Positions 9,001 through 12,000 of a DNA stretch of 64,000 bases are shown one piece after another; the first letter of the stretch is position 1, and each line of letters begins with the position of its first letter. The stretch lies in the NCBI RefSeq assembly GCF_902652985.1, contig NC_047015.1, positions 12,214,001-12,278,000 of the forward strand. Reading direction: 5' to 3'. This DNA is from Pecten maximus. Lineage: Eukaryota. The position numbers are program-made.

Positions 9001-12000
9001 ATATTCTTCAGTATTCTTTGATCACATGTACAGTGCATATGTAAATTCAAATAATTTATACTTGTATACCACTTTAAACTTGTTGGTATGTATGAAAAAA
9101 ACTTACTTTAAAGTCCCAAATGATGAGCTGGCCATCTGCTCCAGAGGTAGAGAATTTGGTACAGTCAGCCTTAGTCCCAGCAAACACAGACACTTTGCTG
9201 GAGAGATGAAAATAAAGGCATGGCCATCTAGCTCCGGATATATAACCAGTTGAGACAATATACCATTGTGATATAATAATAACCTGTGTGTTGAGACATC
9301 CATTGTAAACAGTTAACATATACCATGTGTATATACCAGTGTGTTGAGACAATATACCATTGTGATATATAATAACCAGTGTGTTGAGACAATATACCAT
9401 TGTGATATATAATAACCAGTGTGTATTGAGACAATATACCAATGTGATATATAATAACCACCGTGTTGAGACAATATACCATTGTGATATATAATAACCA
9501 CCGTGTTGAGACAATATACCATTGTGATATATAATAACCAGTGTGTTGAGACAATATACCAATGTGATATATAATAACCACCGTGTTGAGACAATATACC
9601 ATTGTGATATATAATAACCACTTTTATTTCATCCACCACAATCTATTTAAATATGTTACACAATAAAAGATGTTGGTATCGTGTGCCATCACAGCCATCA
9701 AGCTGGTCTTTTGATAAGAGACAGCTGGCGACCATAGAAAAGTCCTTACCACACAGACCATGCTATTCTCAGTCACCCAAGTCAGACTCATGAAAGGCAG
9801 GAAGTTTCCTTTGACAACAGCAATTCTAGAAGGATAAGATAAACACTTTTAGATAAACTTATTCTACGTCCCTCTAATATAGAAGAAGCATGCAGTGTTG
9901 ATCTTTTAGCTGCATTACTTCAATTCTGGAGGTCTTGAAAGATTATCAAAAGTAGGTCACTATGAGGAATACTCCACCAATACATCATTATCAAAAGTAG
10001 GTCACTAGGGGGAGTACATTATCAAAAATAGGTCACTGAGGAGTACTCCACCGATTTAACGTAGGTCACTGATGAGTTCTACACCAATATATCAAAAGTA
10101 GGTCACTGAGGAGTACTCCACCGATTTAACGTAAGTCACTGATGAGTTCTACACCAATATATCAAAAGTAGGTCACTGAGGAGTACAACAGCAATGTATA
10201 AAAACAAATGTCACTGTGACATATACATGTAGCAACATTTCCATTAAAGCACATATCAGATATTAGATTATAACCTGACTTTAGGACACAGTGTATGACC
10301 GAGTCAATAAGTTGGATATGGCAGGGTGTCAGTAATGTTAGTGTTTGTAATGACGTTTGACTGAGGAGAGTCACAACTTATTTTATTATCAAAAAGTAGT
10401 TATAGAACTGTCTGTGAAAAAGCTTGTCAAGGGAGACTTGACAGAGACTTTTTTGAATACTTTCGTAGTTTTAAGATTTTCTTCCTGTGTCAAGTATGAT
10501 AAATCTAAGTCATACTCAAGCTCATATTGATCACTGGTATGTCTGCGTCTGCATTACTTAGAAACCAAGAGGCTGATAGGCATTAATGGTCATCTGACTC
10601 TAAAGACCCTTGTACTATTGTAGTGTACATACTCAGTAGCAAGTATAGTGGTACTGTTGGCCATAGTGGCCATGTTAGCACTAGTGGAAATTGAGAAATT
10701 TAAAATGTGTTTTCTAAGATGGCAGCCAGGGTTGCCATCTTGGATTTTGGACTGACCTGAAAAATAACAACACTTGGTCAGGATTATCTCAGGATCATTC
10801 CATGCAAATTTCAGCTCAATCCCACAAGTGGAACTTGAGAAGGATTTTGAAATGTGAAAAGTTTATGCACGGCGGATGGCAGATGACGACAGACAAAGTA
10901 CAATGACTATAGGTCTTCCTGATCCTTTGGGCCAGGTGTTTGTTCCTTCTGTTATACAGTTGTAAGAATTTTCACCAATATTCATCATTTCATTAGGTAC
11001 CCACAGGAGTTATCATTTCACAAAGTGGGGAGTTTTCATCCAGGTCATTGAAATTGTTGTTATTTAGATGCTTGGAGCACTCAGTGGTGAAACCAGCATT
11101 TATCGGGAAATAAATACCAATTTAACATCCATACAGGTAAGTTGTTTAAGGTGTCCTTTTAAAGTCTGGTACGGTCATGTGTGTGTACAAGCCAAGTTTT
11201 CTGGCCCTGTGAACTATGATTGAGTGGTATTATCAGAGCAAGTGGTTAGTTAATTGTGAAAATAGAAATGCCATAAATATACGTAAATGATGCAGTGAAT
11301 GTAGTCAGTTATTGTGGATATGGTCAGATCTTCAAGAGGTCATTAAAGTCATTGGTCAGTAAATTCAGGTTTCACTGTTCAGCATACTTACTGGTCACCA
11401 TTTCCTGCCAAGGCAACAGACACACTAGCGTCATGTCCTACCCAGGCCAGCTTTTCCCCTAGTTCACTGTTCAGAATACTTACTGGTCACCATTTCCTGC
11501 CAAGGCAACAGACACACTAGCGTCATGTCCTACCCAGGCCAGCTTTTCTCCACTAGGGGAGAATGACACACTATGGACCCATCCACCTATGGAAATGATC
11601 ACGAAGTTCTCAACAGAATTCCAAATAACAACAAAAAATATCAAAACACACCGTATCCTTCAGTTAAGCAATACAGAATTATCTTGTTAAAATAAAATTA
11701 GGTCAACAAAAGCAATTAATCCAATGAACAGTCTGTTACCGTGGAAACATTTCTTTATGGAATGAAATATTTGCACTAATCATGTACCATGCTATATATT
11801 GTTCAAATAAATAAAAAGGTTAGTTTGAATTTAAGATCTACATCAATGATGAACGGAGAAAGATGATTCATCCTCCTAATGGTTGTTTTATAAAATCATT
11901 TTAGTTATTTCTTGGATTACTATTCTTACCTCCACCATTGGAGAATTCACACATGAGATTTCCAAGATTCATCTTAGACCCCCAGCTAGTGGCAGATGGT

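What the first reader, a model, noticed from the sequence alone, without database searches (positions are those of the whole stretch)
9198..9749. ARPC1 lacks about 65 conserved codons, and the flanking splice phases do not match
Seen: exon 9825-9750 ends in phase 0 (...ENSMVCV), while the next exon 9197-9107 needs a phase-2 donor. The 552 bp between them hold a 40-bp minisatellite and short flanks with no recognisable ARPC1 coding sequence. Known: ARPC1 proteins have a conserved GHDCCPMLF...SAM..F..MD...HQNSIT block here. Inference: either the assembly collapsed across the minisatellite and lost one or two exons, or this haplotype has a repeat-mediated deletion that frameshifts a core Arp2/3 subunit.
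Basis: partly seen in the sequence, partly recalled or inferred. Interest (0 to 1): 0.65.

Follow-up and report, generated by a model that had tools for sequence, protein, structure and literature searches.

The report
Scallop ARPC1 gene lacks coding block
In this king scallop reference sequence the gene for an essential actin-branching protein lacks 64 conserved codons between two intact exons, most likely because the genome assembly dropped that piece and not because the animal lacks it.

Summary
The window is Pecten maximus, not human: its exon 2 is 100% identical to NCBI's ARPC1A-like model P0001. ARPC1 lies on the minus strand, 17213-8896, with ten intact exons and nine GT..AG introns.

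Exons 1-8 sum to 792 nt and end in phase 0. Exon 9197-9107 needs two bases from upstream. 191 nt (64 codons) are missing.

The closest scallop orthologue (Ylistrum balloti, P0005) has GYDCCPKLF...SAMNRFRQMD...HQNTIT there. Nothing in the 64 kb matches this block:
- tblastn: best E 9.2.
- Profile of 20 relatives: best E 1.7, against 6e-18 and 1e-19 for the flanking exons.

NCBI's model bridges the hole with 51 unrelated residues read from the intron, through a non-GT-AG junction.

The exons downstream of the hole are as conserved as those upstream (40/42 against 250/264 identical). Any real loss is therefore recent.

The reference was built with wtdbg2 from noisy PacBio reads of a 1.71%-heterozygous animal, and it is 10-20% shorter than the estimated genome.

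- Most likely: sequence lost in assembly (0.65).
- Main rival: a real heterozygous deletion allele (0.22).

Reads could not be checked here. Interest is low.

The parts
8896..17213 (-). ARPC1 (Arp2/3 complex 41-kDa subunit) gene of Pecten maximus, from start ATG 17213-17211 to stop TAG 8898-8896
   Evidence: [quoted passage not shown]: tblastn maps all exons; exon table.
17147..17213 (-). Exon 1 (67 nt), MPETFSFGIDPVTTHSWNNNHT, donor GTATGG
16601..16752 (-). Exon 2 (152 nt)
15386..15494 (-). Exon 3 (109 nt)
15146..15263 (-). Exon 4 (118 nt)
13817..13876 (-). Exon 5 (60 nt)
11930..12036 (-). Exon 6 (107 nt)
11484..11586 (-). Exon 7 (103 nt), donor GTAAGT
11371..11548 (-). 92-bp tandem duplication (1.9 copies) that repeats the last 65 nt of exon 7, its donor and 21 nt of intron. 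85 of the first 86 aligned positions are identical
   Evidence: (second HSP 11480-11394)
9750..9825 (-). Exon 8 (76 nt), ends ...ENSMVCV in phase 0, donor GTAAGG. 25/25 residues identical to Ylistrum
9198..9749 (-). The 552-bp interval where 191 nt of coding sequence (64 codons, one or two exons) should lie. No ARPC1-like coding sequence
   Evidence: no hit; phase arithmetic
9335..9620 (.). 40-bp minisatellite, 7.1 copies, with degenerate units on to about 9245
9627..9749 (-). Intron sequence that NCBI's model P0001 reads as protein (VRTFLW...NRLWWMK). It stops at the last codon before the in-frame TAA 9626-9624
9198..9226 (-). Intron sequence that P0001 reads as WPCLYFHLS(S) ahead of exon 10. 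The implied intron 9626..9227 is TA..GA, or AT..AG if slid by one base
9107..9197 (-). Exon 10 (91 nt), needs two bases from upstream. KVSVFAGTKADCTKFSTSGADGQLIIWDFK, donor GTAAGT
8896..8934 (-). Last exon, SLEKSISGLRIA and stop

Best explanation
The hole is a local error of the published Pecten maximus reference assembly. The animal's ARPC1 gene is intact. When noisy PacBio reads were assembled, a stretch holding one or two exons (191 coding nt) and the adjoining intron sequence was left out of a repeat-rich part of the gene. The real intron 8 and intron 9 were thereby fused into the 552-bp interval 9749-9198. The annotation pipeline then papered over the frameshift by reading intron sequence as protein.

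Shown: the block is absent from the window, the rest of the gene is intact, and the public model carries unrelated filler.

Inferred: that the loss arose in assembly and not in the animal.
For: 1. The gene is otherwise perfect: ten exons, nine GT..AG introns, no stop or frameshift.

2. There is no decay after the break. Against Ylistrum, 250/264 residues are identical upstream and 40/42 downstream. This would not be expected in a gene that had long been dead.

3. The block is conserved. All 19 other relatives in alignment A1 carry it with at most one gap and 27-45 of 64 residues identical to P0005. It holds the ARPC1 insert. According to passages of PMC9295785, the protrusion helix of that insert puts a conserved Phe into the mother filament, and the yeast F332A mutant nucleates 85% fewer barbed ends. 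A protein without the block is unlikely to work.

4. Only one P. maximus ARPC1 appears among the 120 listed hits (143 hits at E<=0.001 among 150 candidates). No spare copy is in sight.

5. Assembly method, from passages of PMC7191990: wtdbg2 v2.2 on 65.9x PacBio Sequel reads; 1.71% heterozygosity; 918.3 Mb assembled against estimates of 1.025 and 1.146 Gb; 10 incomplete and 44 missing of 978 BUSCOs.

6. A second oddity lies 1.7 kb upstream in the same gene: a 92-bp tandem copy of the exon 7 end and its donor, differing at 1 of 86 positions. That is about the heterozygosity level.

7. P0001's filler ends exactly at an in-frame stop and needs a non-GT-AG intron. This is what a forced bridge looks like (my inference).
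Against: No reads were seen, so nothing here shows directly that the sequence exists in the animal.

The assembly was polished twice with Arrow and curated in gEVAL, and 94% of PacBio bases map back to it.

The 40-bp unit forms one array only. A simple collapse inside one array would not remove a unique exon, so a jump between two arrays or some other assembler error must be assumed.

Real hemizygous indels are reported as widespread in molluscs, from a survey of eight species that included the reference P. maximus individual. 39-85% of them were flagged as tandem-repeat-containing (passages of bioRxiv 10.1101/2020.09.15.298695).

No independent P. maximus protein with the block turned up. That search sees cluster representatives only, and the members of the P0005 cluster could not be listed.
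Confidence: 0.65

Rival explanations
1. A real, recent deletion allele. The sequenced wild scallop is heterozygous for a deletion that removes the exon or exons, and the assembler happened to keep the deleted haplotype. This allele gives a frameshifted mRNA (QSVCVCWD, then stop) and no working ARPC1. The other haplotype supplies the protein. It would be one recessive loss-of-function allele in the species' genetic load.
For: Hemizygous indels are reported as widespread in molluscs from a survey of eight species, one of them the reference P. maximus individual. 39-85% were flagged as tandem-repeat-containing (passages). Heterozygosity is 1.71%. The downstream exons show no decay (40/42) and there is no second lesion, which fits a young allele as well as it fits an artefact. 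The window is dense in minisatellites (34 TRF rows at score >=150).
Against: By rough reckoning from recalled figures (not computed), a loss-of-function deletion in a single-copy core Arp2/3 gene should be rare per gene, and the assembler would also have to pick that haplotype. Assembly defects affect on the order of 1% or more of conserved genes here (10 incomplete and 44 missing of 978 BUSCOs). No second array of the 40-bp unit is seen that could have mediated unequal recombination.
Confidence: 0.22
2. A fixed loss. This copy is a dead or dying ARPC1 gene in P. maximus, and a working paralogue elsewhere in the genome does the job.
For: The frame is broken as assembled, and gene duplicates are said to be numerous in this genome (abstract passage).
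Against: There is no other stop, frameshift or splice-site defect in ten exons. Residues after the break are as conserved as those before it. Only one P. maximus ARPC1 appears among the 120 listed hits, and searches found no second Pecten-like protein.
Confidence: 0.05
3. The NCBI model is right. P. maximus makes an ARPC1 in which the conserved block is replaced by 51 lineage-specific residues read from 9749-9627 and 9226-9198.
For: The model is in frame and deposited (P0001). 70 formally in-frame GT/GC-AG pairs exist in the interval.
Against: The filler shares 6 of 64 positions with the orthologue. It ends exactly at an in-frame TAA and needs a TA..GA or AT..AG intron. It would remove the protrusion helix shown to matter for filament binding. 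All 19 other relatives in alignment A1 keep the block, including Ylistrum, which is 95% identical elsewhere.
Confidence: 0.03

Closest known systems
[quoted passage not shown]
   Same: 250/264 residues identical before the gap and 40/42 after it. Every window exon maps to it in order.
   Different: P0005 carries the 64 residues 265-328 (GYDCCPKLF...HQNTIT). The window has none of them.
NCBI model of P. maximus ARPC1A-like (P0001, 357 aa; also in UniRef)
   Same: It is built from this very sequence. All ten exons match the window, and its filler is the window's own intron read in frame.
   Different: It is presented as a whole protein. Residues 265-315 or so are unrelated to ARPC1 (6/64 identical in the block columns), and the junction 9627|9226 is not GT-AG in the window.
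ARPC1A/ARPC1B of solved Arp2/3 complexes (6yw7_C, 7t5q_C, 1k8k_C and others)
   Same: P0005 aligns end to end with 6yw7_C at E 2.2e-155. The block corresponds to chain residues 264-327 and includes MSAMERFRNMDK. Passages of PMC9295785 describe this insert and its protrusion helix.
   Different: The window's gene as assembled lacks that part altogether.
Hemizygous structural variants of molluscs (bioRxiv 10.1101/2020.09.15.298695)
   Same: Indels often linked to tandem repeats, reported from a survey of eight molluscs that included the reference P. maximus individual (passages).
   Different: That study called deletions, meaning sequence present in the assembly and absent from some reads. Here the sequence would be absent from the assembly. 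Its per-species tables are images or supplements that I could not see.

Membership tests
ARPC1 (Arp2/3 complex 41-kDa subunit, WD40 propeller) | Sequence homology to ARPC1 along the protein | tested here: met
   Ten exons hit ARPC1 proteins, nine at E 5e-8 to 4e-26 and the short last exon at E 0.036. Exon 2 alone retrieves ARPC1 from many animals. The orthologue P0005 matches PDB ARPC1A at 2.2e-155.
ARPC1 (Arp2/3 complex 41-kDa subunit, WD40 propeller) | Unbroken reading frame across all exons | tested here: not met
   Exons sum to 922 nt (1 mod 3). The direct 9750>9197 splice stops after 8 codons.
ARPC1 (Arp2/3 complex 41-kDa subunit, WD40 propeller) | ARPC1 insert with the protrusion helix and its conserved Phe (SAM.RF motif) | tested here: not met
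   Absent from the whole window. Present in all 19 other relatives besides P0005 in A1. Function as given in PMC9295785 passages.
ARPC1 (Arp2/3 complex 41-kDa subunit, WD40 propeller) | Complete seven-blade propeller fold | not tested
Pfam finds WD40 and beta-propeller matches in the N-terminal two thirds of both P0001 and P0005, which says nothing about the missing part.
Assembly collapse or deletion artefact | Reads of the same individual carry sequence that the assembly lacks (clipped or inserted long reads, depth anomaly) | not testable with these tools
   No read data can be reached here. The run accessions are listed in PMC7191990.
Assembly collapse or deletion artefact | Assembly method and statistics prone to such loss | tested here: met
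   wtdbg2 on PacBio Sequel reads; 918.3 Mb against 1.025-1.146 Gb estimated; 1.71% heterozygosity. That wtdbg2 tends to drop repeat sequence is recalled, not taken from a call.
Old unitary pseudogene | Several independent lesions and relaxed conservation after the first break | tested here: not met
   There is no other lesion. 40/42 residues are identical downstream against 250/264 upstream.

The most novel reading that the evidence does not exclude
The deletion is real. A wild king scallop carries, on one haplotype, a recent deletion that removes the exon or exons encoding the filament-binding insert and neighbouring propeller strands of its only ARPC1 gene. This would be a recessive loss-of-function allele of a core Arp2/3 subunit, caught by chance in the species' reference genome. 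It would be a concrete molecular example of the heavy genetic load and hemizygosity of bivalves.
Probability: 0.2. Interest if true: 0.35.

Novelty: not a real feature. Interest (0 to 1): 0.12.

Why it matters
This matters mainly as a quality flag. The P. maximus ARPC1 entry that NCBI and UniRef distribute (P0001) contains about 51 residues of translated intron in place of the conserved actin-binding insert. It will mislead alignments, trees and structure predictions that use it.

It also shows that an in-frame public gene model can hide a missing exon.

If the minority reading were true, it would be a modest but tidy case of a null allele of an essential gene segregating in a wild bivalve.

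No new biology of the Arp2/3 complex follows in either case.

Tried and rejected
1. Missing exon elsewhere in the window: rejected. tblastn with four ARPC1 proteins and a 20-sequence profile against all six frames found nothing.

2. Decayed remnant of the exon inside 9198-9749: none. The read-through peptide (VRTFLW...) shares 6 of 64 positions with the orthologue.

3. Alternative splice junctions that cure the anomaly. Among 23 donors and 10 acceptors, 70 GT/GC-AG pairs are in frame, for example the natural donor at 9750 with an acceptor at 9283. All of them only add repeat-derived or intron-derived filler.

4. An independent P. maximus protein or transcript carrying the block.
- The search with P0005 residues 240-340 gave 17 hits among 32 candidates. 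None was closer than 72% apart from P0005's own cluster and P0001.
- The search with the contiguous stretch 9226-9107 gave only P0001 and P0005, 2 of 4 candidates.

5. The same 40-bp unit elsewhere, as a partner for recombination or collapse: none in the window.

7. I searched exon by exon only. No joined spliced model was translated or searched.

8. Rfam over the window found nothing in the gene.

No scallop DNA from elsewhere could be compared.

Full report
**What the window is.** The window has no N and about 35% G+C. [quoted passage not shown] That protein sits on a contig of 60,076,705 bp, which matches the 60.1-Mb longest scaffold of the published king scallop assembly (PMC7191990, passages). 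The window is scallop, not human. I searched the gene exon by exon. I did not translate or search a joined spliced model.

**Gene anatomy.** ARPC1 lies on the minus strand from ATG 17213 to TAG 8896. One search gives ten exons:

| Exon | Coordinates |
|---|---|
| 1 | 17213-17147 |
| 2 | 16752-16601 |
| 3 | 15494-15386 |
| 4 | 15263-15146 |
| 5 | 13876-13817 |
| 6 | 12036-11930 |
| 7 | 11586-11484 |
| 8 | 9825-9750 |
| 10 | 9197-9107 |
| 11 | 8934-8896 |

- All nine introns are GT..AG.
- Exons 1-8 sum to 792 nt, so exon 8 ends in phase 0.
- Exon 9197-9107 begins with the third base of a codon.
- The ten exons sum to 922 nt (1 mod 3). 191 more nt would give 1113 nt, which is 370 codons plus a stop, the length of the closest orthologue.
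- Splicing exon 8 straight to 9197 reads QSVCVCWD and stops at TAA 9173-9171. That is 64 nt before the last exon junction. By the usual 50-55-nt rule (recalled) such an mRNA would be a target for nonsense-mediated decay.

**What is missing.** The closest named relative is ARPC1 of the scallop Ylistrum balloti (P0005, 370 aa). Between ...ENSMVCV and KVSV.AG it has 64 residues (265-328): GYDCCPKLFTHSDDGQVTFISDLDIPQEKDQMTMSAMNRFRQMDKTGTAESTGEVKTKHQNTIT.
- tblastn of P0005, P0001, P0016 and P0009 against the whole window (E<=10, word size 2) finds every exon, the short last one only weakly (E 0.036). For P0005 residues 265-327 the only hit is at E 9.2 on the plus strand at 7209-7304.
- A profile of the block built from 20 relatives and run against all six-frame pieces scores at best i-E 1.7, at 44296-44174.
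- The controls are strong: the 25-residue exon 8 profile scores 5.7e-18 and the 30-residue exon 10 profile scores 1.2e-19.

The block is therefore not in these 64 kb, either whole or in two pieces.

**The interval itself.** 9749-9198 consists of three parts:
- 128 nt of unique sequence;
- a 40-bp minisatellite at 9335-9620 (7.1 copies, 94% matches, with a 122-bp higher-order period at 97%), followed by degenerate units to about 9245;
- about 45 nt before the acceptor.

The unit is found 7 times at <=3 mismatches, always inside 9341-9620, where 0 are expected by chance. Arrays are ordinary in this gene and window. They sit in 5 of the gene's 9 introns and give 34 TRF rows at score >=150 across the window.

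**How the public annotation deals with it.** P0001 reads ...ENSMVCV, then VRTFLWSPAVSYQKTSLMAVMAHDTNIFYCVTYLNRLWWMK, then WPCLYFHLSS, then KVSVFAG....
- tblastn places these pieces at 9830-9627 and 9229-9107. They are exon 8 read on into the intron, plus an upstream extension of exon 10.
- The extension stops at the last codon before the in-frame TAA 9626-9624.
- The implied intron 9626..9227 begins TA and ends GA. Slid by one base it is AT..AG.
- In the block columns P0001 shares 6 of 64 positions with P0005 and has 15 gaps.

I take this for a bridge forced by the annotation pipeline. How that pipeline behaves is my inference, not a tool result. Formally, 70 GT/GC-AG pairs among 23 donors and 10 acceptors keep the frame. 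None restores homologous sequence.

**Is the block dispensable? No.**
- In alignment A1 (21 sequences), the 19 relatives other than P0005 and P0001 carry it with at most one gap and 27-45 of 64 residues identical to P0005.
- In one search, 16 of the 17 hits cover 96-100% of P0005 residues 240-340 at 51-100% identity. P0001 is at 41%.
- P0005 aligns end to end with PDB ARPC1A 6yw7_C (E 2.2e-155). The block matches chain residues 264-327, including MSAMERFRNMDK.
- Passages of PMC9295785 describe this ARPC1 insert. [quoted passage not shown] **Age of the lesion.** Against Ylistrum, 250 of 264 residues are identical before the gap and 40 of 42 after it. No other stop, frameshift or splice defect exists. 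A gene that had been frameshifted for long would not keep its downstream exons this well. The loss is therefore either not real or very recent.

**Artefact or allele?** I could not reach reads, so this is a weighing of indirect evidence.

*For an assembly error:*
- The reference was assembled with wtdbg2 v2.2 from 65.9x PacBio Sequel reads of one wild animal with 1.71% heterozygosity, then polished with Arrow and freebayes.
- It spans 918.3 Mb, against 1.025 Gb (k-mers) and 1.146 Gb (read depth) estimated.
- 10 of 978 BUSCOs are incomplete and 44 are missing (PMC7191990 passages).
- Only one P. maximus ARPC1 is among the 120 listed hits. Arp2/3 is essential in animals (recalled), so the animal must have had at least one good copy.
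- A second anomaly sits in the same gene. A 92-bp tandem copy repeats the last 65 nt of exon 7, its donor and 21 nt of intron, with 85 of 86 positions identical.

*For a real heterozygous deletion:*
- A survey of eight molluscs, one of them this reference individual, reports widespread hemizygous indels. 39-85% of them contain tandem repeats (bioRxiv 10.1101/2020.09.15.298695, passages). Its tables and supplements were not visible to me.
- Bivalves are known for a heavy load of recessive lethals (recalled).

*Against a simple 'collapse across the minisatellite':* a single array cannot by itself swallow a unique exon.

My odds are:

| Explanation | Probability |
|---|---|
| Assembly loss | 0.65 |
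| Heterozygous deletion allele | 0.22 |
| Dead copy with a paralogue elsewhere | 0.05 |
| NCBI's filler protein is real | 0.03 |
| Unassigned | remainder |

**What stayed unchecked.**
- A fold of the orthologue, to name the strands lost (tool not ready).
- Any other scallop genomic DNA, since no eukaryote collection is on hand.
- The supplements and figshare gene set of PMC7191990.

**Verdict.** The most likely meaning is a defect of the reference assembly that the public annotation has masked with translated intron. Biological interest is low. The practical point is that the distributed P. maximus ARPC1 protein is wrong over about 51 residues.

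Noticed in passing
window 11371-11548 (minus strand): A 92-bp tandem duplication repeats the last 65 nt of ARPC1 exon 7, its GTAAGT donor and 21 nt of intron. 85 of 86 positions are identical. The first donor must be used, because reading on meets TAA at once. It could be a real young duplication or a second local assembly error.
   Followed up: partly
window 9627|9226 (junction of NCBI model P0001): The public protein model needs a 400-nt intron (9626..9227) that begins TA and ends GA, or AT..AG if slid by one base. 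The extension of exon 8 ends at the last sense codon before an in-frame TAA. Why the pipeline accepted this is unexplained.
   Followed up: partly
window 36501-36573 (+): A tRNA-Thr (anticodon AGT) found by ARAGORN, and by Rfam at 37.9 bits. Whether it is a gene or a tRNA-derived repeat was not examined.
   Followed up: no
window 62249-63160 (-): A 303-codon open frame with weak, below-cutoff matches to PH_SMPa (E 6.9e-4) and PH. It looks like a large exon of a protein with a PH domain associated with an SMP lipid-transfer domain; from memory this resembles TEX2.
   Followed up: partly
window 28815-33539; also 20521-21935, 22662-24285, 33733-34655, 54591-55925, 59435-60134: Long satellite arrays: 46 bp x 104 copies, 53 x 27, 35 x 46, 21 x 44, 155 x 8.6 and 55 x 12.8. 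These are the sort of sequence in which a noisy long-read assembly loses length.
   Followed up: no
window 43163-44092 and 52071-53675; related copy about 10590-10900 in ARPC1 intron 7: A repeated element forms arrays with 326-bp and 146-bp periods. Its open frames share a ...GCHGGHLGF.TD.KNNNT.SG... peptide, with no Pfam match. One copy lies inside the ARPC1 gene.
   Followed up: no
window 14050-14890 (ARPC1 intron 4) and 15730-16251 (intron 2): Large intronic minisatellites of 26 bp x 32 and about 54 bp x 10. Five of this gene's nine introns carry arrays.
   Followed up: no
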